Below are positions 4,969-31,517 of a DNA stretch of 35,062 bases, piece after piece (position 1 is the stretch's first letter; every line of letters begins with the position of its first letter). The stretch is from a virus (Duplodnaviria; Heunggongvirae; Uroviricota; Caudoviricetes). The translations under genes and the position numbers were made by a program. The notes below the pieces were generated by a model. It saw only the letters and a list, made by a program, of their open reading frames with translations, was not told the origin of the DNA and did no database searches. Where the stretch lies: positions 1 to 35,062 of the IMG/VR virus record IMGVR_UViG_2548876964_000015; one strand, given 5' to 3'.

Positions 4969-5001
4969 ATTGCTCTAATAAATTTGATTTATTAGAGCAA
5001 A
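4969..5001. promoter_or_regulatory. Palindromic pair of C1-operator-like sites
   Basis: 4969-4985 ATTGCTCTAATAAATTT is a 17/17 match to the P1 C1 operator consensus as I recall it; an inverted 14/17 copy overlaps at 4985-5001, giving TTGCTCTAATAAAT-TTGA-TTTATTAGAGCAA. Confidence 0.7.
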
Positions 5002-7580: not shown

Positions 7581-7626
7581 ACCATTATAGAAGGATCCAA
7601 CGAAAATAATAGATTTATTAGTGCAT

Positions 7627-7836
7627 TTATTGTGAGTCTGGCTGGTTAGTGGCCATGAGATATTCGATTGTGTCAGTGAGATCATCCAGGTCGTCTTGGG
7701 TGATGCGGTACTCCTGATTGGATATCTTTGAGTAGTGTTCAGCAATGGCGCGGGCAGCGTCGGTTTCGGCAGGGTCTACAGATAAAGCGTTAGAGCAATG
7801 TCTAACGTCGTCGATGGTTGGTTGAATGAAAGCCAT
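7627..7836 (-). CDS. coi: Coi, C1 inactivator
   Basis: 69-aa acidic ORF immediately upstream of c1 on the same strand, as in P1 immC. Confidence 0.75.
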   Translation of the reverse strand: MAFIQPTIDDVRHCSNALSVDPAETDAARAIAEHYSKISNQEYRITQDDLDDLTDTIEYLMATNQPDSQ

Positions 7837-8074
7837 AATTATGCCTCACTGTATTGACAACACAGAGCCTGAAGCTCTGACCTACTGTTTCACCCATGAT
7901 CCATGCTGGGGTAATCTAACAACATTGCGCTGTGTGTAAGATGAGCAATGCATAGCTGTAATGCCGTTGTATAAGGTTTCCCTGTTTGCTCATTTCCTTC
8001 TGAGCCGCTCTACAACGCTGAAGACACATTAAATAGTGAATCCAAAGTCGTATTACGTAACGGCGGCAAAACTA

Positions 8075-8091
8075 TAATTTATTAGAGCAAT
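8075..8091 (-). promoter_or_regulatory. C1-operator-like site (16/17)
   Basis: TAATTTATTAGAGCAAT is the reverse complement of the operator consensus with one mismatch; lies upstream of coi. Confidence 0.6.
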
Positions 8092-8156
8092 TGTCAAACA
8101 ACTATGAAAAACAATCCAGTTTTTGGCTGGTGGAGTGGGATTTTCTCTCAAAATTT

Positions 8157-8173
8157 ATTGCTCTAATAATTCT
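8157..8173 (+). promoter_or_regulatory. C1-operator-like site (15/17)
   Basis: ATTGCTCTAATAATTCT. Confidence 0.5.
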
Positions 8174-8216
8174 TGATTTTTATGCGTAGCTGGACGTAAA
8201 CTCCTCTTCGGACCTA

Positions 8217-8250
8217 ATAACTTCGTATAGCATACATTATACGAAGTTAT
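8217..8250 (+). other. loxP site (Cre recombination target)
   Basis: Exact ATAACTTCGTATA-GCATACAT-TATACGAAGTTAT. Confidence 0.97.
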
Positions 8251-8322
8251 CTTAAGGGTTATTGAACATGATTAATTTACCTGTAAATCCATACAGTTCA
8301 ATACCTTATCAGGTCAAATAGT

Positions 8323-8407
8323 GATCACTTGATCATTTGATCAAGGTTGCGCTACGTAAAATCTGCGAAATGTTGGCAGTGTTAGTGCTCCAGATTTCGC
8401 GTAGCGC
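8323..8407. promoter_or_regulatory. Three GATC sites within 20 bp plus an imperfect inverted repeat
   Basis: TGATCACTTGATCATTTGATCA (GATC at 8323, 8331, 8339); GCGCTACG (8349-8356) pairs with CGTAGCGC (8400-8407), and AAATCTG with CAGATTT. Confidence 0.45.
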
Positions 8408-8439
8408 ACTTAGCACCACCAATCAATCAGAGGTGAAAA

Positions 8440-8661
8440 ATGGGATATTCAGCTGCTAAAGTGTCCACTCATCTTGAGCTTGAGAAAAACCGTGGTTACT
8501 GGCGGGCAAAATGGTTTGAGCGTGATAGTTACCAACTGTCATTATCTCGCGGTGAAGAGAAAATAGAACGCACGCGCGGTCGCTGGCGTTTCTATGACGA
8601 GAACCATAACCAGGTAAAGGCAGAGCCAATCCTGTACACTCTGCTGAAAACAATAATTTAA
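8440..8661 (+). CDS. Hypothetical protein (73 aa)
   Basis: ATG preceded by GAGGTG at about -10; no recognisable domain. Confidence 0.45.
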   Translation: MGYSAAKVSTHLELEKNRGYWRAKWFERDSYQLSLSRGEEKIERTRGRWRFYDENHNQVKAEPILYTLLKTII

Positions 8662-8680
8662 CTTGATCATGAGGTGATGA

Positions 8681-9076
8681 ATGTTTAATGGCCTGACAGA
8701 TGCCAAGGTAAACGCCTTACTGAACGACGCAAAACAAAAAGCTGCTAACCCTGGAACGAATGAAAATGAACGTGCTATGGCTGTTGCAATTTGGGAGTTA
8801 GCAGAAGAAGTAAAGCGAAACCGCTTACTATACACTCGGGTTTACCAGCAATTTGATGGTGCGAGCTGGATAGATATCGAAGAGGCTGAATATGCAACAT
8901 GCAAAAAAGAAAAAAAGATTGTTCGGATTTTGCATAAAGCAGCAACCCCAATCACTGTAGAAATCCCCGATCACAGATATTTCGAGAACGATGATCTACC
9001 AGGGGATGTGATTCGAATTATTGATGAGATACTTCATGAACAAGGCTTAACTGTTAAAATCACGCATAATAAATGA
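8681..9076 (+). CDS. Hypothetical protein (131 aa), translationally coupled to cre
   Basis: ATG preceded by GAGGTG; stop TGA overlaps the cre ATG (ATGA). Confidence 0.55.
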   Translation: MFNGLTDAKVNALLNDAKQKAANPGTNENERAMAVAIWELAEEVKRNRLLYTRVYQQFDGASWIDIEEAEYATCKKEKKIVRILHKAATPITVEIPDHRYFENDDLPGDVIRIIDEILHEQGLTVKITHNK

Positions 9077-10121: not shown

Positions 10122-10138
10122 ATTGCTCTAATTATTTG
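10122..10138 (+). promoter_or_regulatory. C1-operator-like site (14/17)
   Basis: ATTGCTCTAATTATTTG, 18 nt after the cre stop. Confidence 0.5.
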
Positions 10139-10596: not shown

Positions 10597-10626
10597 ATTG
10601 CTCTAATTGATTGCTATAATTGAGCC
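10597..10626 (+). promoter_or_regulatory. Tandem C1-operator-like sites upstream of ref
   Basis: ATTGCTCTAATTGATTG (14/17) then ATTGCTATAATTGAG (weaker, contains TATAAT). Confidence 0.5.
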
Positions 10627-11461: not shown

Positions 11462-12103
11462 ATGGATAAGAAAATATGCGTTGTTTCGATGAGCGTCGGC
11501 AAACCGGCGTCAATGACTGCTGCATGGATCAATAACGAGCTGATAATGGCTGAGCGGACCAGCTACCCTGAACGCCGCCGCGATATGGAACTCCAGCTGC
11601 TGCGCGAATTGCGAGAAAAAGAGGAAAAGGGTTTTATCGTGCTGGTGGAAGAGGAAAACAGCTTTATTACTGGTCGAGTTGGCCAGCGTGTAAGGTTGCG
11701 CGATCCCTTCATGAACGGCAGGCCGGTACTGATTGAAGCAATGCAGATTTACAAGGAGCTGGAACGCCAGAAAGCAATCAAGTTACCGCGCAAGGAATCC
11801 GGCAAATACATTCTCCACCAAAGCATCTTCGATTCCGAACACGATAAAAAAGGCGATGAATTTTTCAACATCAACTGGAGCGAAATAACGACAGAGCATG
11901 TTCTGACGTTACTATGTTGCTTTGCGACGGAATACAACAACGTTGCCAGCGCCGACTACATCAGGGCAATGGCTGGAGAAGTTGAGGCCCGCCAAGAACC
12001 ATCGTTACTAAGTCCACTGATTAACATAATTCTGGGCACCCAGATACTGGAACAAAAAAAAGTGCCGAAAGGGGTATTAACAGGCAAGCATAATTATTTT
12101 TAA
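11462..12103 (+). CDS. mat: Mat-like particle maturation protein (by position)
   Basis: ATG at 11462 has SD GGGGG; track ORF from 11315 starts at a GTG inside the promoter motif. Product assigned by gene order only. Confidence 0.55.
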   Translation: MDKKICVVSMSVGKPASMTAAWINNELIMAERTSYPERRRDMELQLLRELREKEEKGFIVLVEEENSFITGRVGQRVRLRDPFMNGRPVLIEAMQIYKELERQKAIKLPRKESGKYILHQSIFDSEHDKKGDEFFNINWSEITTEHVLTLLCCFATEYNNVASADYIRAMAGEVEARQEPSLLSPLINIILGTQILEQKKVPKGVLTGKHNYF

Positions 12104-12196
12104 CAATTACATACAGTAATTTTGTGGTTACATTCTCCATTGATTTTCTAACCGCTTTATCATTAGATGTAACAGCATGTAAATCATTTAAAATGG

Positions 12197-13333
12197 ATGA
12201 AAGCAATGGGGAATGAAGTTTATCAAAGTCAAAAATGCAAGTTGAAATATTCAAAATCTCAAATTGATAGGGCTGCTCAATTGATAAGGCACGGGTGTAG
12301 TGACGAAGAAAGGCAGCAATCTATTGAAATGATACAAAATTTCCGTGAGCTGCATCTTTATCCATTAATGCTCATGAAAAATCATTTAGCAAGAGCAGCT
12401 GCTAAGGTTGACAAGGACAAAAAGATTCTCGTTGCAAGAAGACTTAAGCGACTTTCTACCATAATAGATAAACTAGAGCGTCCTAGTCTTGATGGAGGCA
12501 GAACTAGCAATGCAATTAAATTAACACGGATGCAGGACGTTGGCGGATGTAGGGCCATTGTCAGAAACTTAGACCAGTTGATACAGCTAAAGGAACGTCT
12601 TTTAAAAAGCAAATCTGTTCATAGGATTGTTAAAGAGTATGATTATCTTACTCCCAAAGACAGCGGCTATAGTGGAATCCACCTTGCATACAGTTGCTTC
12701 GATCAGAAAGAGGATCAATATCCGTGGCGAAAAACAAAGATTGAGATACAGTTAAGAACTCAATTGCAGCATGCTTGGGCTACTAGCCTTGAAATAATTG
12801 ATACCCTTGAAGGTATCAAGCTGAAAACTTCAAGTGAAGGGCATCCAGAATGGAGACGATTTTTCTATCTAGCCGGATGTCTTGTAGCGCACGACGAAAA
12901 AGCCTGCACTCTTGATGAGCTAGTTGTATCTCAGTATGAAGGCGAGCTTAAAGAGCTGGAACGGACTTTATCTGTACGGAGGAAACTAAGCACATACACC
13001 ATCGCCTTAAATTTAACTTCTGACGCGAATTTGATTAAGAAGTTGCCAAAAAATCATAAGGGGCATTACTTAGTAACAATGAGAAATGCAGAAAACAAGC
13101 CCAATACAAAAAACAAAAAAATGTTCCTAGTGTCTGTTCGCGCATTTAAAACAAAAGAAGCAGATGAAGCCCTTGAGGCCTTAAATAAAGACGATTCTAA
13201 TCCTAATGTATTGATATCTGTTCTCGTTGCTACAGATAACATTAAGTCACTAAAAAAAGCCTACCCCAACTATTTTGGCTCAACAAACCAGTTTACAAAA
13301 TTCTTAGATAAGCATCTTCGTAACGAAGGATAG
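12197..13333 (+). CDS. RelA/SpoT-like nucleotide pyrophosphokinase, toxSAS-type with extra C-terminal domain (fused toxin-antitoxin candidate, CapRel-like)
   Basis: Synthetase-domain motifs visible: RMQDVGGCRAIV, KEYDYLTPKDSGYSGIHL, KIEIQLRTQLQHAWA. About 170 aa of unrecognised C-terminal sequence follow. Confidence 0.8.
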   Translation: MKAMGNEVYQSQKCKLKYSKSQIDRAAQLIRHGCSDEERQQSIEMIQNFRELHLYPLMLMKNHLARAAAKVDKDKKILVARRLKRLSTIIDKLERPSLDGGRTSNAIKLTRMQDVGGCRAIVRNLDQLIQLKERLLKSKSVHRIVKEYDYLTPKDSGYSGIHLAYSCFDQKEDQYPWRKTKIEIQLRTQLQHAWATSLEIIDTLEGIKLKTSSEGHPEWRRFFYLAGCLVAHDEKACTLDELVVSQYEGELKELERTLSVRRKLSTYTIALNLTSDANLIKKLPKNHKGHYLVTMRNAENKPNTKNKKMFLVSVRAFKTKEADEALEALNKDDSNPNVLISVLVATDNIKSLKKAYPNYFGSTNQFTKFLDKHLRNEG

Positions 13334-13341
13334 TTGCTTAA

Positions 13342-13366
13342 TTTTGCCCGGTAATTCCGGGCAAAA
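13342..13366. terminator. Bidirectional hairpin terminator
   Basis: TTTTGCCCGG-TAATT-CCGGGCAAAA, flanked by A/T on both sides, between convergent stops at 13333 and 13370. Confidence 0.6.
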
Positions 13367-13369
13367 TTG

Positions 13370-13618
13370 TCAATCTGCATTCAGGAGCAATGCGTTATCT
13401 ATGATGATCTGCTCCCATTCTTCGAATGCCCGATCGCGGACGCCCTGGGGAACACTGTTAGTTTTGAAATCGACCACCGTCCGCCATTTCCCGTCCGGGC
13501 GGTACATGCGCAGAGCTTTACTTCCCCCTTCCCTGCGCACCTCAACGTTATGCTTATCAGCAAACTCTTGTAATGCTCGTAGCGTCCCATGCTTTACTGT
13601 GTAGTATCGCTTTTTCAA
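13370..13618 (-). CDS. Small basic protein (82 aa); possibly the C1 co-repressor Lxc/Bof (tentative, by size and position)
   Basis: Start overlaps the stop of the upstream ORF (ATGA); 82 aa matches my recollection of P1 Bof length. Confidence 0.45.
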   Translation of the reverse strand: MKKRYYTVKHGTLRALQEFADKHNVEVRREGGSKALRMYRPDGKWRTVVDFKTNSVPQGVRDRAFEEWEQIIIDNALLLNAD

Positions 13619-20000: not shown

Positions 20001-20856
20001 CCAGGGGGATTTTCTCAGCCATCTCCGCCGGATGTTTGCGCATCAGCACCACGTCAACGACCGTACTGGTCCCGTTTGCGTCAAAAGTACCGGTAGGCAA
20101 GCGGTGGGCACCAAGAAATTCAGCTTTACGGGATAGGCGCAGGCGCAACCGCTTCATGTTTGAACCTGAAACAATGGACGGCGGCACAATCACACACATG
20201 AATCCGCCTGGCTTTATCTTGTCCAGCATGCGGAGCATGAAGTAAGACCCCATATCCGTTTCTTCTGCGTAAGGCTTATCGATGTTGCGTGTGTTATCAC
20301 GACCGCCGAACGGAACGTTACCCACAACATGGTCGAATGAATCGTTAGGTGTGCTTATAGCCAGCTGTTCGAACGGGGAAATCTGTACGCTGTCTTCCGG
20401 ATGTAACAGCTGGTTTATACGACCGGAAACACTGCTGATCTCAGTCGCGGTCATCACCGTACCAACCGGTTTTGTCTCATTAAAAACGCCGGTGCCCGCC
20501 GATGGTTCCAGAGTGTTACCTACGTCCGCGCCATAGAGCTTCATGATCTCCCAGACGCCTTCAGCGATCGGCTTTGGTGTGTAATATTCGGAGACGGACC
20601 CGCCAATGCCACCTTCACCGGTGTACCCAGCCAGGATCTGGCGCTGTTCATCTGTCAGTGTCGCGCCGTCCACCAGCGAATTAAGCAAATCTATCGCCTT
20701 CTGATTCGCCTCCCGGCGCAGTCGGTCATAGCTTTTGCCTTCCACCTTTTCCACGCCGTATTTAATCGGCGCCCGGTGAGATGTTATTGCCCTAATGTAT
20801 TTCAATATTTCGCTGACACTTGAACAGCGAAACACCCCCATAGATAGCTTGTTCAT
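14089..20856 (-). CDS. darB: DarB, large methyltransferase-helicase anti-restriction protein
   Basis: Single 2255-aa ORF; N-terminal N6-adenine methyltransferase motifs (EPSAGTG, NVPFGG); helicase motifs (GLGKTTT, DEGHNYRN). Length matches P1 DarB as I recall. Confidence 0.93.
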   Translation of the reverse strand: MNKLSMGVFRCSSVSEILKYIRAITSHRAPIKYGVEKVEGKSYDRLRREANQKAIDLLNSLVDGATLTDEQRQILAGYTGEGGIGGSVSEYYTPKPIAEGVWEIMKLYGADVGNTLEPSAGTGVFNETKPVGTVMTATEISSVSGRINQLLHPEDSVQISPFEQLAISTPNDSFDHVVGNVPFGGRDNTRNIDKPYAEETDMGSYFMLRMLDKIKPGGFMCVIVPPSIVSGSNMKRLRLRLSRKAEFLGAHRLPTGTFDANGTSTVVDVVLMRKHPAEMAEKIPLVDEGTLESANVLWPTFISGKWFEKDGRRFVHGTQEKGFQGRIEVRADGQIDNQALKAKLIHRFESRIDWSLLDMAEPSPTADVVGEGEMRLINGVWQKYAGGRWIEADAGKELKIDAASYGADSWEALQRNLTTTEGRLGMTFTQMANVRDKYTTSISDDMVQLVDWINSQPEKYRERLYRGAMIGRMLIEYQDMKAAGHSAEQIEQQRLSLVSRLQAEIDRFGNPGRGPIAKLSGSGARAWFAFRGAIKLDGTISDELTGKLVTHDSSASYDSTSYQDTLRYLYSDLTRDPIQLDDFRLAFTGELPASDDELLNLLASTPGIAVSQYGGIVPFARATSGDINEIVAPKQEFLATLPDGPVKNNVLNQLAAIEEKRIKTPAENIRFKLNSRWFDRSVILEFLQENGYPDLRYVQSVQLEGDEMVSDTYHGSDGLFVGHRYGVVQRKDKETGEIRYEWDRKSGENATGFPAQLEKYLNGARIGGKDSATANGYREQMALLEDQFNKWIKTHDRYDELVAKYNDVFNSNIPYEHSGDPLGLKGLSGKRQPFDYQNSEVRRLSEDGRGILGFGTGLGKTTTALALEAFNYENGRSTRTAYVVPKSVLENWYYEAKEFLSEEAFSNYLFVGLDVLMDGDQIRQVPVLDENGKPVLGTDGTPVMRDALKLADEATITARMNAIPHSNYRAVVFTKEQYARIPLRDDTVDEHAQDMLYDFVAAGRVASAMDSDSHRKEAARRWVLSEYSDTGTEKAEKYPYFEDMGFDSVIADEGHNYRNSYKNGREASQLAYLPTSAVAQSARDMAIKNAYLMKKNGGRGPVLLTATPVVNTPIDAYNMLSHVLPKEYWQKMGIYGPDDFVKFFGKTRLETVQKISGEVEEKMALVGFENLDALRGIFHRWVTLKTAEDVKDTVEIPELDEHQQDAPLTEEQLAAYEELRQQAEAAAKANNGVTTSVNEDGVIEHEKARPIFSIIRDMDRVCTDMDLYYRRITYRFLPEYADAVQQLADSLPKQATSEDDDSDDSITQQSQYSLIDKGEFIQLQVPEAFEQEVNKRLARFGIDEQTVTHPVTPKYAKLIATLKEFFPEGKQIIFTDEKTQHQKLKRIICNALNLEPSKVGILNAQTVAEAGKTGKKLKAVKPPKELPDEPTDAQIAKYNEQMALYDAYIAQQNEMSLGGLEKIAADFQEGRTPIIICNKKAEVGINLHRGTTDIHHLTLPWTPASIAQRNGRGARVGSNRASVRVHYYCGKGSFDEYRLKTLKRKAGWISDILRSDKSEMENADANDMIEMQMYTAKDDGERLAMMQVQMDKAKAAQRARQKEQATIDLQNYIKAQHAAGEDVEVLTAELERSKAELEKTTAEVAKFKQAVMAKAADNADWKARWGSVHHTDRTLLAQYRASLKSAIQRKANISQAISRYEKLLNRTQKAATDIKRLRPLVEDAINKGILDVDPDLVNHASEFLVIGDRSWRVGQYYDCAGDIVRIKSLDFDSQRADVEIIFTFKGTKSGNWDVKTLDKQVDVTPDEDAVMQKISGGVSIAGINDIISCDDFYRFQQRGMIKITDSYGVQTTESGYSIDFVGTYTDPLKHAVYPDRRDGALKSSIAKWVLGMMSEGNNRQIRSAETFLVELFGSNYGDVIASYGDTLSPEAIQEKIADAIARMPEKTSQGATRNGDSELEVTNAIFGTNEFRASDYEITTAQFGTIGIYSNKAEIKQAMDAASARIAAERKANLNHAVAALTQSWVTAIREAATTGKITPAIADVVNDGSKFMDAYKMDAVQLPSAYGQLSYRMTYNLVSMFTDLAILGLVDLNEVTPELLSMRKNHVEILQRINTVLAGRTDEEKQADADRINLALGNITEEEIAARNEKQEELSSIQGDATSIAQSLGLNYRVSTADLKMMYAPKFAAGEVFGLQEASGMKGVLFRAKDAIKAKFGARWLPAKAKNSDFPGNWWIIETKHNVADVLAVIQQYA

Positions 20857-20922: not shown

Positions 20923-23653
<2,731 letters not shown>

Positions 23654-25971: not shown

Positions 25972-25988
25972 GTTGCTCTAATTATTTT
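25972..25988 (+). promoter_or_regulatory. C1-operator-like site (14/17) between lyz and ssb
   Basis: GTTGCTCTAATTATTTT. Confidence 0.5.
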
Positions 25989-26007: not shown

Positions 26008-26496
26008 GTGGCACAACGCGGTGTAAACAAAGTCATCCTGATTGGTACCCTGGGGCAAGACCCGGAGATCAGGTATATACCAAATGGCGGAGCGGTCGGA
26101 AGACTCAGCATCGCAACGAATGAATCATGGCGCGACAAGCAAACGGGCCAACAGAAAGAGCAAACAGAATGGCATAAAGTCGTTTTGTTCGGAAAACTTG
26201 CTGAAATTGCGAGTGAGTATTTACGAAAAGGTTCTCAGGTCTACATCGAAGGGAAACTTAAAACCCGTAAGTGGACAGATGACGCCGGTGTAGAACGTTA
26301 CACGACGGAAATTATCGTCAGCCAGGGCGGCACCATGCAAATGATCGGCGCTCGTCGCGACGATTCACAGTCCACAAATGGCTGGGGGCAATCAAACCAA
26401 CCTCAAAACCACCAGCAATACAGTGGTGGCGGTAAACCTCAGAGCAACGCTAATAACGAACCTCCAATGGACTTTGACGACGATATTCCGTTTTGA
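26008..26496 (+). CDS. ssb: Single-stranded DNA-binding protein
   Basis: GTG start; [20 protein letters not shown]... closely resembles E. coli SSB; Gly/Gln-rich tail ending DFDDDIPF. Confidence 0.9.
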
Positions 26497-26693
26497 ATGT
26501 GTAAAAAACGACTGAAAAAAAAGCGGTGGTCCAGACGCCGACAAAAGCACGAACTCGCTCAAAAACGCCAAAGTTGGCAATGGCACGCGCTTTTAACGAA
26601 TAGAACACCCCGAGATATTGCTTTCGCTGGTGGGAAAACATTCCTAACCAACCTGAAGGCGCAATACATCAGTTTTTAAGCAGAGAAAAGACT

Positions 26694-27482
26694 ATGACAG
26701 CACAAAATACTAAAACCATTCAATACCGCCTACGTAATGGCCAGAGTGTCGAAGTGACCGTCAATAATGATGGAGTGCCAGGCGAAAAGGTTTCTATCTC
26801 TGATCTGGCTATCGAAAAAACCATCATGTGCCACCTTGGCTTTACTGAAGAAGTGAGCAAAAAGCATGGTGTAGCAATCTGGAGCGCAATGGATACTGGT
26901 ATGCGCAGATTCATTACTGCTCGTACCCCAGGGATGACCATGATGGACCTCATGCAGATTGCGCCGCTGTTTGAGTGTGAACCTTTAGATGTATTCAGCA
27001 ATCCAGCTATCTGCCAGCAGTTATATGGTGAGATGAAACTCGCGGTTACCCCCATTGTGCTGCATGAAGGATCGCTTGCTGGCGTATGGAAAGTAGAGCG
27101 AATTTCAAGCTACATGCCTTTCCATGTCAACGGCGTAATCACTGGTGAAAATCAACCTGTTTCCGTTATAAAGTCAGACCTCAAGCGCGCAATTCTTGAA
27201 GCAAGTTGTCGAGTTGTCGGCCTGGGCAAACAGTCTTATGTTTCCTTCCCGGCTGGCCCTGAAGGCCCGGCAGAAATTCTGATTATGGATGCCGATCTGC
27301 TCTGGCAAATACAGTTTCTGATTGGCAAAAGCATCATCCGCGATGAAGAACTAGATCAGTACATTACCTGCACGATGACGGATGAAGTCAAAAGTGTGGC
27401 TATAGCCAATGCCCGGAACCTATGTCGTGCTGCATTAACAGAACTGCAAGAAAACACCACGGGAGAAGTGGAAAGTGATTAA
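26694..27482 (+). CDS. Hypothetical protein (262 aa), isaA-like by position
   Basis: Follows ssb as in P1; no domain recognised. Confidence 0.55.
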   Translation: MTAQNTKTIQYRLRNGQSVEVTVNNDGVPGEKVSISDLAIEKTIMCHLGFTEEVSKKHGVAIWSAMDTGMRRFITARTPGMTMMDLMQIAPLFECEPLDVFSNPAICQQLYGEMKLAVTPIVLHEGSLAGVWKVERISSYMPFHVNGVITGENQPVSVIKSDLKRAILEASCRVVGLGKQSYVSFPAGPEGPAEILIMDADLLWQIQFLIGKSIIRDEELDQYITCTMTDEVKSVAIANARNLCRAALTELQENTTGEVESD

Positions 27483-27484
27483 AA

Positions 27485-27517
27485 AGAACCCGCCAATTGG
27501 CGGGTTCTTTATTTATT
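27485..27517 (+). terminator. Rho-independent terminator
   Basis: AGAACCCGCC-AATT-GGCGGGTTCT then TTATTTATT. Confidence 0.6.
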
Positions 27518-27728
27518 GAATTAGCATTCAACTCCCGATTGTTATAGCGAACACTATGTAACAGAATAATATTATTAACATTTTAGTAATAAGTTGATTA
27601 TTCATCTTCTGTATTCGCAAAGCGTAAGTATTGCTCATAGTTTCTTATTCCAGTACATTGTGATTCGTTGAGGCAAAAGAATAGTGGCAATTCTACTGGC
27701 AATAAACTCAAGTAAGAGGTTGTAAACA

Positions 27729-28016
27729 ATGGAAAAACTGAACAATTTCTTAGACAAAATATCCACCCCAAACACTCGCGCAGGCCACACTATTACCCGC
27801 ATAGCTAAGCTAAGCGATGCGGGTGTCAGTGATGACGTAATCGCACTTCAACTGTCCAGTAACAGTGCAAATGGCTTCCGATATACAGCAGATGAAATAA
27901 AAGCGTATAAGAAGCTCCACAATGATGTAAAAACTAAAGTGGGAATTACATCCAAACAAACAAAAGCATTAATCAAAGATCAAGAGCTGACTTTTGTTGC
28001 ATTGCCTCAAAACTAA
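27729..28016 (+). CDS. Hypothetical protein (95 aa) in an AT-rich island
   Basis: Flanked by AT-rich non-coding DNA; followed by a 13-bp hairpin GTTATAAGAGCGA...TCGCTCTTATAAC at about 28052-28097. Confidence 0.45.
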   Translation: MEKLNNFLDKISTPNTRAGHTITRIAKLSDAGVSDDVIALQLSSNSANGFRYTADEIKAYKKLHNDVKTKVGITSKQTKALIKDQELTFVALPQN

Positions 28017-28219
28017 ATTTGTTTAAAGCTATAGCTAACAAAGAGTTATAAGAGCGATAGTGATAAATTTATCATTGTCGCTCTTATAACCTTGTTAAAG
28101 ATAAGAATATAACCCAAAAGATATACATGGGTTATTAAGGCCATAATTATCAGGCAAATAACATGAAGTCGTCTATGTGATGGATGAAATTTGAACAATC
28201 AATTCTATGCCAATTCCTG

Positions 28220-28540
28220 TCAATACAAGAGTTGGTTTACTGTTTCATCACTAAAAACCTCTTCATCGTCATCATCATCCTCATCGCCACCATCTACTGC
28301 TGGCCAATCAACAAACCAGCCAGCGTAAAGATGCAGCGTTCGGAGAACATCACTTGCGGGAGCATCAAGGGTGTTAACGAATCCCATATAGCTATTGGGA
28401 TTTGCCCCAGCTATGGCTTCAGCGATCATGTCCTCGGTAATGTCACCGGAGATAATGCTCAAACGCCCGGAAACTTCTTCATTATCATCAAATTCGATAA
28501 TGGCATCTCCGCCTAATGGCGCTGCGATTTTAATCTGCAT
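28220..28540 (-). CDS. Acidic hypothetical protein (106 aa), hxr position
   Basis: Start overlaps the ddrB 3-prime end; poly-Asp/Glu stretch. Confidence 0.5.
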   Translation of the reverse strand: MQIKIAAPLGGDAIIEFDDNEEVSGRLSIISGDITEDMIAEAIAGANPNSYMGFVNTLDAPASDVLRTLHLYAGWFVDWPAVDGGDEDDDDDEEVFSDETVNQLLY

Positions 28541-31517
28541 TATTTAGCTCCTTTGCCACACCTAATAACAGTTCCAGCAATCCGTCACCATTCATCAGTG
28601 ATGCGGCAGCGGCCTCTTTGTCATGATACAACTGAAGAGCCATAGAGAATACTTCCGTTGCTGACGTTTTGGAAATAGTCGGTGATTTCTGCCGAATTTT
28701 CCCGGAATTACTTACTGAGGCTGGCGGGTATACCTTCGCCATATAAATATTACTCAATCGAGATCTGAAGCACCATTCAGGCTTGCCACGCCCACCGATA
28801 TTGACGAATGATGGCTTATCCCCTTCAACATTGGCCTTCAGGAATGACTGGGCTTTCTCTAACAAACCAGGGTTACTGTACTCAAGATGATGACCCAGCT
28901 CGTGCCACAGTGCACTTGCATTTTTATCGTTCAAATTGACAGCAACAACACCATTTAGATTTGCATATGCCCTTCCCTGGTGGTGAACTACCTTTGATAA
29001 GGTCGATATTTTCCCGCCGGTCAGGCGATAAATATCAGCAAGTTCCTTGCGCAGGTCTATCCCACCATTCTGTCCAGCGCGGACTTCTTCCACTTCTTCT
29101 GTGATAAAAGAGTCGGCCCACTCAAGAGCTTTTTCTTCAGATACGGATGAGTTTGCGATCGCACTGTTCATGGCAGATAACACTTTCTCGTGGACCGAAC
29201 CCATACTTCGCTGATTCATTTGCCAGCGTGTCTGCGGGTTATATGAGAATCGCTTAAGTAGTTGGTCAAGCTGCTCAAGTTCTTCTTCACTGACATACTT
29301 TTTAGCCTCACCAATAATGCCAGGGAGAATATTGCCGTTAGGATTAAACGCTCGCGAAAGGAAGAGTTTCAGCGCCCCCATGCCCTCCGATGCTTCAATA
29401 TCACCAATAACCCGGTTAACAATGGCCGCACTCTTCGGATTAGCATCCGCCAACGCTCTGGCTACGATTTGCAGGGACGATACGACCTCACGCTGCATAT
29501 CAGTCCTGATCTCATCAATAAACTCTGGCGTTATGCCGTGCTCTTTAAGGATATCCCGGCCTTCCGCCGTTACCCCATCGATATCACCGACATGTTTATT
29601 AACACGACTTTGCAATGCCTTAAATGCCTTCAGAATTCCACGGGCATCATCCGCTTTACTAACGGCCTTCCTGAATGCTGGCAAGAAGTCTGAGTTAACC
29701 TCATTTTGTTGATCGGCCCACTGAATGGAGGCTTCCTTCATCTCGTCCAGAGTCAGATCACCCAACGCGGTATGGTCTGTGAATATGAGCGATAACCTCT
29801 GAACCATTTCTGCCAATGGTGATGCCGAATGCGCCGCGCTAAGGAATGCTTTCACCCTGGTTGGGCGAATGGAAAACCAGTCAATAGCTGGTGGCATATC
29901 TCCGTTTTTTATCGCCTGCGCTATCTCGTCAAAGCCATCGCGCCCAAGGGAGGATGCGTGATTTAACAAGCCGCGAAGTAACGAATTGCTGATACCGAAT
30001 AATCGGCACCATTTTTTCACGTCGGCAACAGGCATTCGAACAAAATGCGCAAGCACTTGAACAAGCTGTTCATCCTGGGGATCTGTACGGGAAAGCAGCC
30101 TGATCAGATGAATAATGTCTTTGATGCCGGATGCCCGATGTAATAGCAAGCTGGTATATGGAGCAACACCGTTGTAACTACCGCCAGAAGCTGACTCGAA
30201 AAGACCGCCAGATATCCCTTGCATACCTTCGTTTTCCAGTTCCTGAGATACCTGGCGAAGGATATCCTGTAACGACACATCGCCGCCGCCAAACATATCC
30301 CCGAGCGCCTGGCCCTGGTGCTGTAACTCATCATTGATACGTTGCGCCATCAACTTAAAGGCGGTGGCCATACGCTTCGCGCTACGGTTATTCGCGACGA
30401 TGAACAACGCGAGTGCTTTCACTTCCGGGGCCGTTTCGCTGAACATATCCCCCTGAGCAATAACATCGGTAATATGCTGGCCTGACTCCTTCGATTGCCT
30501 TACCAGGTCTACCGCATCTTTCAATGCCGCCAGCGCCTTTTTATCGAGGCTATCCGATGTCTCAATGCCATCAACAATAGTTGTCACAGCCTGCTTGTGC
30601 GCTTCTCCTGATAAAGCCTGCATCTGGACAAAATCATTGGCTGCCGCATTAAGCGCCGTCAGAACATTACGCATATCCGGATCAGGTTCTTCTGCAACCA
30701 TCCTTACCAGGCGCGCATCCTTATATGCCTTGGCAAAGATCGCGTTTTGTATACGGTCAACAAGTTGCCGTGTTGGTCGCCCATCTTCAGTTACAAGGCC
30801 AGCCGCCTGTGTGGCACCAACTTGCGTCATAAATCCGCGAATAAACGCGTCATTACTGCGGCTAAGCAGATCTCCGCTTTCTGACGGGTTAAAAAGCGCC
30901 ATCATCGCCGGTGTTATGCTGTCGGCATCAACAAAAGCCTTTTCACTGGCTGCCATTTCCTGAAGATCAGAAATATTTGAGTCCTTGGCAAACTGAACGC
31001 GGTCAACCTTAGTTAACCGGCGGCGCACCAGTACCGGAGCCGTCATTGATTCAACCTTTTCAGGTCGTATGCCGAATTCGGTCGCATGATCAATCAGGTA
31101 CTCACGATACCGATCCGCATTGCCGTCCTGATAGGCTTTGATGATCCCCATGGTCCGTCCATTACCTGACTCAACGGCATTGTCCTCACCAATTATCGGC
31201 GCGCCATGGCTGGATAAACCGGAATCGGTAAGCTGAGCAGGCCGCAAATCTTTGGATATCTGGTTAACCTGAAGAAGGCTGGATGCGCGGGTCCGGTCGC
31301 GCGGCTGAAGTTCCTGGGGATAGTCTGGATTAATTTTCCCATCCAGAGTATTGGATACCAAAAGAACTGAGGCATCGACGATATCAAACGCTGTTTTTAC
31401 CTCGTCTCCCTTCGCTGTCACCACATACGAAACCCGCCCATAATCGGGCAGGTTCTTTAGCAGCTCGATCAGCGTTTCTATGCTGGTGGCCATTACCACC
31501 TGATCGCTTAAGCTCAT
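28530..31517 (-). CDS. ddrB: DdrB-like large protein of the darA operon (995 aa)
   Basis: Assigned by size and order (ddrB-ddrA-darA-hdf) as in P1. Confidence 0.7.
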   Translation of the reverse strand: MSLSDQVVMATSIETLIELLKNLPDYGRVSYVVTAKGDEVKTAFDIVDASVLLVSNTLDGKINPDYPQELQPRDRTRASSLLQVNQISKDLRPAQLTDSGLSSHGAPIIGEDNAVESGNGRTMGIIKAYQDGNADRYREYLIDHATEFGIRPEKVESMTAPVLVRRRLTKVDRVQFAKDSNISDLQEMAASEKAFVDADSITPAMMALFNPSESGDLLSRSNDAFIRGFMTQVGATQAAGLVTEDGRPTRQLVDRIQNAIFAKAYKDARLVRMVAEEPDPDMRNVLTALNAAANDFVQMQALSGEAHKQAVTTIVDGIETSDSLDKKALAALKDAVDLVRQSKESGQHITDVIAQGDMFSETAPEVKALALFIVANNRSAKRMATAFKLMAQRINDELQHQGQALGDMFGGGDVSLQDILRQVSQELENEGMQGISGGLFESASGGSYNGVAPYTSLLLHRASGIKDIIHLIRLLSRTDPQDEQLVQVLAHFVRMPVADVKKWCRLFGISNSLLRGLLNHASSLGRDGFDEIAQAIKNGDMPPAIDWFSIRPTRVKAFLSAAHSASPLAEMVQRLSLIFTDHTALGDLTLDEMKEASIQWADQQNEVNSDFLPAFRKAVSKADDARGILKAFKALQSRVNKHVGDIDGVTAEGRDILKEHGITPEFIDEIRTDMQREVVSSLQIVARALADANPKSAAIVNRVIGDIEASEGMGALKLFLSRAFNPNGNILPGIIGEAKKYVSEEELEQLDQLLKRFSYNPQTRWQMNQRSMGSVHEKVLSAMNSAIANSSVSEEKALEWADSFITEEVEEVRAGQNGGIDLRKELADIYRLTGGKISTLSKVVHHQGRAYANLNGVVAVNLNDKNASALWHELGHHLEYSNPGLLEKAQSFLKANVEGDKPSFVNIGGRGKPEWCFRSRLSNIYMAKVYPPASVSNSGKIRQKSPTISKTSATEVFSMALQLYHDKEAAAASLMNGDGLLELLLGVAKELNNAD

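What the first reader, a model, noticed from the sequence alone, without database searches (positions are those of the whole stretch)
27513..28219. AT-rich island with a 95-aa ORF and a large hairpin where P1 carries IS1
Between the isaA-like gene and the darA operon the sequence becomes markedly AT-rich and holds a single 95-aa ORF of unknown function, followed by a 13-bp-stem hairpin. P1 has an IS1 copy in this interval by my recollection; here the slot carries different cargo, possibly horizontally acquired.
Basis: partly seen in the sequence, partly recalled or inferred. Interest (0 to 1): 0.4.

Follow-up and report, generated by a model that had tools for sequence, protein, structure and literature searches.

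The report
Orphan small gene in P1 hotspot
A known swap-slot of P1-like phage-plasmids here holds an AT-rich, self-contained one-gene insert; its 95-residue helical protein has unnamed relatives on integrons, prophages and large plasmids, so this is an ordinary kind of variation carrying an uncharacterised gene.

Summary
The interval has 34.7% G+C against a window mean of 48.9%, the lowest of any stretch that size. It holds one 95-aa ORF (27729-28016, +) followed by a strong palindrome (28045-28090). P1 carries IS1 plus isaB at this position, P7 carries nmpC, and SJ46 has only 29 bp. The slot is the published variable region "RD-2/region 2" of P1-like phage-plasmids.

The replaced segment runs from about 27511 to about 28271 and includes the last ~17 codons of hxr. 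Acquisition therefore looks like recombination with a diverged hxr-bearing relative, not transposition. Only 25 of about 480 P1-like elements in complete E. coli genomes carry it.

ORF95 is a real gene family: 121 cluster representatives, about five of them spurious repeat proteins, with dN/dS of 0.13-0.30. It has no Pfam, NCBIfam, PHROG or PADLOC name. A confident AlphaFold model (pLDDT 86) gives five helices that resemble helix-turn-helix DNA-binding domains only weakly.

Most relatives examined are lone genes oriented against their neighbours. These include attC-bounded integron cassettes in inverted orientation, three of them within 5 kb of an integron integrase, as well as prophage accessory sites and Pseudomonas megaplasmids.

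My best reading is an autonomous accessory ("moron") unit encoding a small regulator-like protein. Its function is untested, and within P1-likes it may be drifting. Interest is low to moderate.

The parts
27483..27510 (.). Perfect 12-bp G+C-rich stem-loop with an A-run before it and a T-run after it. It is the bidirectional intrinsic terminator after isaA and belongs to the backbone, not the island. A slightly different version is present in SJ46.
27511..28271 (.). Replacement segment (island), absent from SJ46, P1 and P7. It is 34.5% G+C (measured over 27511-28275) and occurs as one unit in all carriers. The right edge is approximate and lies inside hxr.
27631..27659 (+). Candidate sigma-70 promoter TTGCTC-17 nt-TACATT, matching 8 of 12 consensus positions. 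This is below the scan tool's 9 of 12 threshold. It was read by eye and is inferred only.
   Evidence: sequence; one search reports no + strand promoter at its threshold
27682..27703 (+). Two direct repeats, TAGTGGCAAT and TACTGGCAAT, 12 bp apart and just upstream of the ribosome-binding site. Alleles differ at the same position of each repeat (27686, 27698). A possible operator; untested.
27714..27719 (+). Shine-Dalgarno-like AAGAGG, 9 nt before the ATG.
27729..28016 (+). ORF95: a 95-aa protein of five helices with a helix-turn-helix-like core, and a member of an unnamed family. RefSeq lists it as hypothetical protein WP_000413423.1.
28045..28090 (+). 46-nt near-perfect palindrome. On + strand RNA it forms a continuous 21-bp stem. 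On the - strand the two G.U pairs become C.A mismatches. Probably the 3' stem-loop or terminator of ORF95 and an insulator against the convergent darA operon.
28109..28135 (.). Second small hairpin, ATAACCCA / TGGGTTAT, with an 8-bp stem and an 11-nt loop. Function unknown.
28220..28540 (-). hxr. It is identical in kind to P1 hxr, but the last ~17 codons (about 28220-28271) are a diverged allele (...DEEVFSDETVNQLLY* in place of ...FGDHVDQIVY*). This allele is found only in island carriers.

Best explanation
The interval is one more cargo allele of the documented isaA-hxr variable slot (RD-2) of P1-like phage-plasmids. It is a roughly 760-bp, AT-rich, self-contained accessory unit of the "moron" type.

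Its parts, in order:
- an AT-rich leader with a weak sigma-70-like promoter
- a good ribosome-binding site
- a 95-codon gene
- a very stable stem-loop that ends or stabilises the transcript and shields it from the convergent hxr-ddrB (darA) operon

It arrived by recombination with a more diverged hxr-bearing relative. The left junction lies just after the isaA terminator and the right junction lies inside hxr. Transposition and integron integrase are not indicated.

The protein belongs to a widespread but unnamed proteobacterial family of about 100-residue helical proteins. The predicted core resembles helix-turn-helix DNA-binding domains. Most examined relatives travel as lone, self-expressed genes on mobile elements: integron arrays (as inverted cassettes), prophage accessory sites and megaplasmids.

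My committed guess is that ORF95 is a small DNA-binding regulator made from the resident plasmid-prophage independently of C1 and late-promoter control.

Shown: the composition, the boundaries, the family, purifying selection in the family, the genomic contexts and the RNA hairpin.

Inferred: the promoter, the termination role of the hairpin, DNA binding, and any phenotype.

Sub-claim confidences: cargo allele of the known hot-spot 0.95; real protein-coding gene 0.9; autonomous transcription unit 0.6; DNA-binding regulator 0.4.
For: Slot and boundaries:
- SJ46 has 29 bp where the window has about 740 bp, and P1 and P7 carry other cargo.
- The hot-spot is published.
- G+C is the lowest in the window.
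- The island, together with the variant hxr 3' end, always occurs as one unit, in 25 genomes, all on P1-like plasmids.
- Hxr is 99% identical to P1 up to residue 80 and then diverges to a homologous-looking tail.

Gene reality:
- 121 representatives at E<=1e-3, of which about 116 are small proteins of 62-163 aa, mostly around 100-125 aa, sharing a motif.
- dN/dS is 0.30 and 0.13 in two closer pairs; dS is saturated with dN 0.22-0.46 in distant pairs.

Fold:
- pLDDT is 86 with a 50-sequence alignment.
- Residues 26-41 fit the classic A..G(V)S...(V/I) HTH pattern (read from the sequence; conservation).

Autonomy:
- No C1 operator within 3 mismatches lies in the island.
- No P1 late-promoter -22 box is present.
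- Relatives sit alone and against their neighbours in a Xenorhabdus prophage between the lysis genes and terS, after tail genes and in pQBR57/DN1 megaplasmids.
- In Nitrosomonas, Psychromonas and an Alteromonadales MAG they sit as attC-bounded integron cassettes in orientation opposite to the array, which requires their own promoter. In three of these four loci an integron integrase lies within 5 kb.

Hairpin: z = -7.6, continuous only on + strand RNA.
Against: - No promoter reaches the scan threshold on the + strand.
- The hairpin has no U-tract on the + strand.
- No sequence profile calls an HTH: there is no Pfam or NCBIfam hit for ORF95, and only 3 of 110 family members gave weak HTH_7, HTH_SB or HTH_38 hits.
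- Foldseek finds nothing significant in the PDB or in viral models (E>=0.9).
- Family isoelectric points range from about 4.9 to 9.6, so the family is not uniformly basic.
- The putative recognition helix (DDVIALQLSS) is rather hydrophobic and acidic.
- Among near-identical P1-like copies the ORF shows 4 non-synonymous changes to 1 synonymous, one at the >90% conserved G19, plus two frameshifts. That looks like relaxed constraint.
Confidence: 0.6

Rival explanations
1. Passenger in decay. ORF95 came in with a recombined segment, has no role in Escherichia P1-like plasmids and is drifting toward loss. The island is simply neutral filler in a tolerant slot.
For: Among about 11 distinct copies there are 4 non-synonymous changes to 1 synonymous. 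The neutral expectation is about 3.5:1, from the N and S site counts. One change is G19D at a >90% conserved residue. There are also two frameshifts: a 5-bp deletion in L019 and a +A insertion in CP027590. SJ46 and most P1-likes do without the island.
Against: The counts are tiny, and the frameshifts could be assembly errors (a homopolymer run and a tandem GCTAA slip). Fourteen of fifteen Escherichia plasmid copies are intact at >=95.8% identity, across E. coli O111, O157 and O103 and E. albertii from several continents. The wider family is under clear purifying selection.
Confidence: 0.25
2. ORF95 acts through protein-protein contacts rather than DNA binding. Its HTH-like fold would be used as a mimic or adaptor, for example of sigma region 4 or of a small-terminase N-domain, in competition between mobile elements (defence, anti-defence or exclusion).
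For: Most relatives are lone, self-expressed genes at classic accessory sites of prophages, integrons and plasmids, where defence and counter-defence genes gather. One sits among toxin-antitoxin, NOV_C and Pnkp/Hen1 genes. The top structural matches include small terminase and sigma region 4. Family pI is variable and the "recognition" helix is unpromising. Integron cassettes are reported to hold many defence systems (abstract of bioRxiv 10.1101/2024.07.02.601686, listed).
Against: There is no PADLOC hit for ORF95 or six relatives. No conserved partner gene appears. The structural matches are weak, and there is no direct evidence of any phenotype.
Confidence: 0.2
3. The palindrome is a relic attC site, and the island is an integron cassette inserted by an integron integrase at a secondary site.
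For: Relatives are genuine cassettes bounded by attC sites. Three of those loci have a TIGR02249 integron integrase within 5 kb, scoring 381-492 bits against a cut-off of 265. With relaxed rules, 28033-28100 reads AGCTAAC, a short spacer, the long stem, a short spacer, GTTAAAG: 68 bp in an attC-like layout.
Against: The strict attC scan finds none in the whole window. The relaxed scan gives 6 hits in the island against 2.2 in shuffles, so it is not specific. The R boxes pair at only 4 of 7 positions. The stem has no extrahelical bases or unpaired central spacer. The island continues about 180 bp beyond the hairpin and ends inside hxr with a homologous allele, which does not fit a G|TT junction.
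Confidence: 0.05
4. The palindrome is a pair of inverted, diverged C1-type operators inherited from the donor phage. It would be a repressor-binding site rather than an RNA element.
For: Each arm resembles the P1 C1 operator. ATCGCTCTTATAACTCT matches 13 of 17 consensus positions. On a matrix built from the nine operator-like sites of this window, the arms rank 13th and 34th of 70,092 17-mers.
Against: The scores (11.9 and 5.1) are far below the nine sites (>=20.7). Both arms break the invariant TGC and CTAAT cores. The heads-in arrangement with an 18-bp centre is unlike P1 bivalent operators such as 4969-5001. The AT-rich context inflates chance similarity.
Confidence: 0.07
5. The functional product lies on the other strand: a small hydrophobic peptide (28046-28198, -, 50 aa, TTG start) or an antisense RNA, forming a type I toxin-antitoxin-like pair with the hairpin.
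For: The ORF contains a hydrophobic stretch (HVICLIIMALITHVYLLGYILIF). Two weak minus-strand promoter-like sites lie at 28175 and 28098. Inverted integron cassettes with their own promoters are typically toxin-antitoxin systems (PMC11023631).
Against: AT-rich DNA gives hydrophobic ORFs by chance. The ORF has a TTG start and no clear ribosome-binding site. This downstream DNA occurs nowhere else. Homologous cassettes end within about 50 bp of the ORF95-like gene and hold one gene only. No Rfam family reaches threshold.
Confidence: 0.04

Closest known systems
Variable region RD-2 / region 2 (isaA-IS1-isaB) of P1-like phage-plasmids (Venturini et al. 2019, PMC6906374; PMC9603915)
   Same: It has the same position between isaA and hxr, the same low G+C, and cargo that differs from element to element while being shared among subsets of plasmids.
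   Different: The cargo here is a 95-aa gene plus a palindrome. I found no description of this allele in the two papers consulted. The replacement also covers the 3' end of hxr.
Phage "morons": extra promoter-gene-terminator units between conserved genes, as in lambdoid and HK97-like phages (definition recalled from my own knowledge of Hendrix and colleagues' work)
   Same: It is present in some genomes and absent in collinear relatives. Its composition is atypical. It is a single gene with its own apparent expression signals, placed between convergent transcription units.
   Different: The promoter and terminator are not demonstrated. The promoter match is weak and the stem-loop lacks a U-tract. 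No lysogen phenotype is known.
Promoter-bearing integron cassettes in reverse orientation, such as the toxin-antitoxin cassettes of the Vibrio cholerae chromosomal integron (PMC11023631, PMC13108822)
   Same: Relatives of ORF95 are attC-bounded cassettes oriented against the array. They must therefore carry their own promoter, and they carry their own terminator hairpin.
   Different: They hold one gene, not a toxin-antitoxin pair. The copy in the window has no attC and no integrase nearby.
Small helix-turn-helix DNA-binding domains (DeoR/SorC N-terminal domain, Mu Mor and C activators, sigma region 4, N-domain of phage G20c small terminase)
   Different: No sequence-profile relationship exists and Foldseek finds nothing significant. 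The most conserved motif (S/T-P-x-S-R-A-G-x-T-V-E-R at the start of helix 2) is not a feature I can assign to any of these families.

Membership tests
Cargo of the P1-like RD-2 hot-spot | Lies between isaA and hxr in an otherwise collinear P1-like backbone | tested here: met
   Flanks are 94-99% identical in protein to P1 IsaA and Hxr. Alignment to SJ46, P1 and P7 confirms the position.
Cargo of the P1-like RD-2 hot-spot | Low G+C relative to the backbone | tested here: met
   0.347 against 0.488. The papers describe the same trait.
Phage moron | Present or absent between otherwise adjacent conserved genes of close relatives | tested here: met
   SJ46 has a 29-bp junction. 25 genomes carry the island against 480 with the hxr-ddrB flank.
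Phage moron | Own promoter upstream and terminator downstream | tested here: inconclusive
   Only an 8-of-12 sigma-70 match was found by eye, and the scan tool reports none on the + strand. A strong stem-loop follows the ORF but has no U-tract on +.
Phage moron | Expressed from the prophage independently of lytic genes | not testable with these tools
   Indirect support only: no C1 operator and no late -22 box in the island.
Integron gene cassette | Bounded by an attC site (R''/R' boxes, paired L boxes, unpaired spacer, extrahelical bases) | tested here: not met
   The strict scan gives 0 in the window. The relaxed candidate 28033-28100 is not specific and lacks extrahelical bases. The feature is met for relatives in L008, L035, L025 and L028.
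Integron gene cassette | Part of an array next to an integron integrase | tested here: not met
   No integrase lies near the island. Relatives in L008, L025 and L028 lie within 5 kb of proteins scoring 381-492 bits on TIGR02249, cut-off 265.
Helix-turn-helix DNA-binding protein | Significant match to an HTH sequence family | tested here: not met
   No Pfam or NCBIfam hit for ORF95. Only 3 of 110 relatives give weak HTH hits. No PDB sequence hit below E = 0.089.
Helix-turn-helix DNA-binding protein | HTH fold | tested here: inconclusive
Helix-turn-helix DNA-binding protein | Binds DNA | not testable with these tools
   This needs EMSA or ChIP.
Insertion sequence / transposon | Transposase gene, terminal inverted repeats, target-site duplication | tested here: not met
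   No transposase is present. No inverted repeats lie at the island ends. The right junction is a homologous hxr allele.
P1 C1 operator | 17-mer within about 3 mismatches of ATTGCTCTAATAAATTT with the TGC..CTAAT core | tested here: not met
   The hairpin arms have 4-5 mismatches and break the core.
P1 late (Lpa-dependent) promoter | A -22 box (AAGTGATTT in LPlyz and AAGTTACTT in LPdar as read here) 4 nt before a -10 hexamer | tested here: not met
   Only TAGTGATAA lies inside the hairpin, matching 6 of 9 positions.
Known anti-phage defence system | Match to a PADLOC model | tested here: not met
   No hit for ORF95, six relatives, IsaA-like or Hxr.
Type II toxin-antitoxin module | Two adjacent co-transcribed small genes | tested here: not met
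   The island and the homologous cassettes each hold a single gene.

The most novel reading that the evidence does not exclude
ORF95 would stand for a new class of self-expressed, single-gene mobile module that moves between integron arrays, prophages, phage-plasmids and megaplasmids across Proteobacteria. In integron arrays it occurs as an inverted cassette, and in two unrelated marine integrons it is the first cassette, directly upstream of intI and on the same strand. It would encode a previously unrecognised helix-turn-helix-fold factor with a specific role in conflicts between mobile elements or in control of the host element, for example defence, counter-defence, or modulation of integrase or prophage expression.
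Probability: 0.2. Interest if true: 0.55.

Novelty: new member of a known kind. Interest (0 to 1): 0.3.

Why it matters
For P1 biology it adds little. It is another allele of a slot already known to swap cargo, and RefSeq already annotates the gene as a hypothetical protein.

The modest value lies in the gene family. It is a conserved, unnamed protein of about 100 residues, confidently foldable, under purifying selection, and in most examined loci placed as a lone gene against its neighbours on four different kinds of mobile element. Its presence as a promoter-bearing inverted integron cassette is unusual, because that arrangement is so far associated mainly with toxin-antitoxin pairs.

If a phenotype were found, it would name a family now blank in Pfam, NCBIfam, PHROGs and PADLOC. 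It would also give a concrete case of the same module being shared between integrons and phage-plasmids.

Tried and rejected
1. IS or transposon origin. No transposase or terminal repeats are present, and the right junction is a homologous hxr allele.
2. ORF95 as a relative of IsaB, which holds the same position in P1. No similarity was found.
3. Known RNA family for the hairpin or leader. Nothing reaches an Rfam gathering score.
4. P1 late promoter inside the hairpin. A loose pattern hit at 28059-28075 failed once the -22 boxes of LPlyz and LPdar were read.
5. C1 operator in the ORF95 promoter. ATTGCTC at 27630 is a chance heptamer: there are 13 in the window against 6.5 expected, and the rest of the site does not match.
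6. attC identity of the hairpin.
7. Giant proteins among the phmmer hits (P0088, P0097, P0110, P0113, P0120). These are repeat proteins whose many weak stretches add up, and they are not relatives.
8. The "second place" in each plasmid hit is only the palindrome matching itself on the other strand.
9. Searches that failed or could not run: the search for related loci with the wide alignment (no conserved stretch), afdb50 fold search (library absent), and the Lobocka 2004 P1 genome paper (not held).
10. The repeated TGGCAAT motif occurs nowhere else in the window, so no regulon could be proposed.

Full report
**What is in the sequence**

The window is a P1-like (Punavirus) phage-plasmid. Over the island it is 100% identical to pO111_2 of E. 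coli O111:H- 11128 and to several other STEC plasmids.

The features around the finding, in order:
- ssb at 26008-26496 (+)
- an isaA-like gene at 26694-27482 (+), 94% identical to P1 IsaA residues 57-320
- a perfect G+C-rich bidirectional terminator at 27483-27510
- a 218-bp AT-rich leader
- a 95-codon ORF at 27729-28016 (+), with AAGAGG 9 nt before the ATG
- a 46-nt palindrome at 28045-28090
- about 130 bp more of AT-rich DNA
- on the minus strand, hxr (28220-28540) and ddrB (28530-31517) of the darA operon

G+C of the reported interval is 0.347 against 0.488 for the window, and the lowest 707-bp window of all 35 kb starts at 27508. On + strand RNA the palindrome folds into a continuous 21-bp stem with a 4-nt loop, and the region has z = -7.6 against shuffles. 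On the minus strand the two G.U pairs become C.A mismatches and the stem is interrupted.

**The slot**

- In P1 the same interval holds IS1 (22626-23393) and isaB.
- In P7 it holds nmpC and odaA.
- In SJ46 the isaA stop and the hxr stop are 29 bp apart, with only the terminator between them.
- In RCS47 an ISSod13-family transposase is annotated under the match.

Two surveys of P1-like phage-plasmids list isaA-IS1-isaB as a recurrent, low-G+C hot-spot of variation: RD-2 in PMC6906374 and region 2 in PMC9603915.

**Boundaries and mode of arrival**

Against SJ46, similarity is lost right after the terminator stem (about 27511). It returns at about 28272, inside hxr.

Hxr is 99% identical to P1 Hxr for residues 1-80. 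Its tail reads ...DEEVFSDETVNQLLY instead of ...FGDHVDQIVY, a diverged but recognisably homologous ending (read). This variant tail is found only together with the island.

No transposase, terminal repeats or duplication flank the island. The simplest history is homologous replacement from a more distant hxr-bearing relative. That donor was not found.

Of 5426 complete E. coli genomes, 480 carry the hxr-ddrB flank, 335 carry the isaA flank and 25 carry the island, always on plasmids. It is also present in E. albertii plasmids and in phage vB_EcoM-Ro157c2YLVW.

**The gene**

A word-indexed search found only near-identical copies and one protein at 56% identity. An exhaustive phmmer search found 121 cluster representatives (61 at E<=1e-10). 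About 116 of them are small proteins of 62-163 aa, mostly around 100-125 aa. The five giant hits are unrelated repeat proteins.

The family shares a clear pattern: D..(D/E)K.S.P.SRAG.TVER..K....GV...VIALQ.T.NS.N...YT..DV....KLY.D.KTKV.IT..Q..ALI.DQ. R24 is invariant, and R17, G19, A39 and L81 are conserved at 90% or more.

dN/dS is 0.30 (N. europaea against Nitrosomonas sp. Nm58) and 0.13 (N. europaea against a gammaproteobacterial MAG). More distant pairs have saturated dS. It is a real protein-coding family.

No name exists for it. There are no Pfam, NCBIfam or PADLOC hits, and the only PHROG match is a chance-level E = 0.03. All source names are "hypothetical protein", apart from one evidently mis-assigned JGI label.

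**Structure**

Folded alone, the protein gave a poor model with pLDDT 63. With a 50-sequence alignment it gave pLDDT 86 and pTM 0.69, with five helices at 2-12, 14-30, 35-44, 54-69 and 75-90.

- sigma region 4
- Mu Mor and C
- DnaA domain IV
- LuxR-type domains, resolvase HTH, KorA and StbA

Foldseek found nothing significant in the PDB or in viral models, although the same small terminase and StbA came first. A profile search of PDB sequences found nothing.

Residues 26-41 (AKLSDAGVSDDVIALQ) fit the classical HTH spacing. However, the would-be recognition helix is hydrophobic and acidic, and family pI ranges from 4.9 to 9.6. DNA binding is my leading inference at about 0.4. It is not a result.

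**Contexts of relatives**

The most informative result is where relatives sit.

*Integron cassettes*
- In Nitrosomonas europaea and Nitrosomonas sp. Nm58 the gene lies between two attC sites, with a leader and its own canonical terminator. In N. europaea it is one unit of an array that ends at an integron integrase, and it points against the other cassettes.
- In Psychromonas sp. KJ10-10 and an Alteromonadales MAG it is the first cassette, again inverted. It has an attC upstream, a hairpin plus a conserved CTAACAG boundary downstream, and intI about 350-375 bp further on.
- The three integrases score 381-492 bits on TIGR02249 against a cut-off of 265.
- From memory, the + strand of the Nitrosomonas attC matches the bottom strand of attC-aadA7, which agrees with the inverted reading. 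The positions of intI and the orientation of the other cassettes give the same answer independently.

*Other mobile elements*
- In a Xenorhabdus prophage the gene sits alone on the opposite strand between the lysis cassette and the small terminase gene.
- In another prophage it follows the tail genes.
- In a MAG it lies among BrnT/CopG, NOV_C and Pnkp/Hen1 genes.
- In one metagenomic contig it lies in an island next to smpB, and in another it lies in a phage- or plasmid-like element with umuDC.
- In Pseudomonas megaplasmids pQBR57 and DN1 it holds a syntenic position, alone against all neighbours.
- It also occurs on an Aliivibrio plasmid.

No partner gene recurs. An inverted cassette cannot use the integron promoter, so the family must carry its own expression signals. 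That fits a moron-like unit in P1.

**Regulatory signals in the island**

- The nine C1-operator-like sites of the window all lie elsewhere.
- The P1 late -22 box, read from LPlyz and LPdar, is absent.
- A weak TTGCTC-17-TACATT promoter can be read at 27631-27659, below the scan threshold.
- Two direct repeats with a TGGCAAT core precede the ribosome-binding site. Alleles differ at the same repeat position in both copies. The motif occurs nowhere else in the window.

**The hairpin**

It is not in Rfam. It fails my strict attC scan, and it fits only a relaxed and unspecific one. It occurs nowhere else in E. coli.

Its arms resemble the C1 operator: 13 of 17 positions, with matrix ranks 13 and 34 of 70,092. 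They break the invariant cores and are arranged heads-in.

I take it as the 3' stem-loop of the ORF95 transcript and an insulator against the convergent darA operon. The T-rich CTCTTTGTT follows it on the minus strand. This role is inferred.

**Caveat on function in P1-likes**

Near-identical island copies differ in ORF95 by four non-synonymous changes (E2A, P14T, G19D, S75A) and one synonymous change. Two copies are frameshifted, one by a 5-bp slip at AGCTAAGCTAAG and one by an extra A in an A-run. The numbers are too small to decide, but they fit relaxed constraint.

**Verdict**

In kind it is a known phenomenon, cargo turnover at RD-2.

The cargo is a new, unnamed member of the accessory-gene world. 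My best estimate is an autonomously expressed small HTH-fold regulator. The rivals are a drifting passenger or a protein-protein effector in conflicts between mobile elements.

Novelty is "new member of a known kind", and interest is 0.3.

Noticed in passing
window 4969-5001, 7611-7627, 8075-8091, 8157-8173, 10122-10138, 10597-10613, 20786-20802, 25972-25988: Nine 17-mers lie within 3 mismatches of the P1 C1 operator consensus, against 0.2 expected by chance. They include an overlapping inverted pair at 4969-5001 and the ssb operator at 25972. Three further near-sites score just below them, at 7783, 11263 and 3914.
   Followed up: partly
window 28042-28058 (-) and 28077-28093 (+): The two arms of the big palindrome look like degenerate C1 operators, ranking 13th and 34th of 70,092 17-mers on a matrix from the nine sites. 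The invariant TGC and CTAAT cores are broken and the arrangement is heads-in.
   Followed up: partly
window 27682-27703: The direct repeats TAGTGGCAAT and TACTGGCAAT lie just upstream of the ORF95 ribosome-binding site. Other island alleles carry G>A at 27686 and G>T at 27698, the same position of each repeat, and the two changes mostly occur together.
   Followed up: partly
window 27796-27812; L019 (IMG/VR contig) and L034 (NZ_CP027590): ORF95 contains a tandem GCTAA-GCTAA slip site. One viral contig has lost one copy, giving a frameshift. Another plasmid has an extra A in the run at about 27928, and there the gene is annotated as a 69-codon stump.
   Followed up: yes
window 26497-26693, compared with L002, L003, L030-L033: A second presence/absence polymorphism lies just upstream. 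Many relatives have a DUF2829 gene (225 aa) between ssb and isaA, and SJ46 has a 281-aa gene there. The window and pO111_2 have only 197 bp. P1 IsaA is 58 residues longer at its N-terminus.
   Followed up: no
window about 7770-8730 and about 11720-13440: These are the only other stretches of the window where 707-bp windows fall below 40% G+C. [quoted passage not shown]
   Followed up: no
L025 5285-5345 and L028 5300-5350: Two different marine integrons (Psychromonas and an Alteromonadales MAG) share the boundary motif CTAACAG(C)TTTAT between intI and an inverted ORF95-like first cassette. This is presumably the attI crossover region. Finding the same family as first cassette in both is striking.
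   Followed up: partly
L008 6387-6445 and L035 6387-6446: The Nitrosomonas attC sites beside the ORF95-like cassette are very similar to the bottom strand of attC-aadA7 as I recall it (GCCTAACGCC...AAGCCG...CGGCTTGAAT.GACTTGTTAGGC). This comparison is from memory and was not checked against a database.
   Followed up: no
L006 234-864 and L007 159-789: In two metagenome contigs, the closest non-Escherichia relative from the first word-indexed search (56% identity) overlaps by 8 nt the end of an upstream 100-aa ORF of unknown function. This is the only case seen of a possible two-gene operon.
   Followed up: no
window 28046-28198 (-): A 50-codon TTG-start ORF with a strongly hydrophobic core lies on the minus strand directly after hxr and spans the palindrome. 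It is probably an artefact of AT-rich DNA. Its homology was not searched.
   Followed up: no
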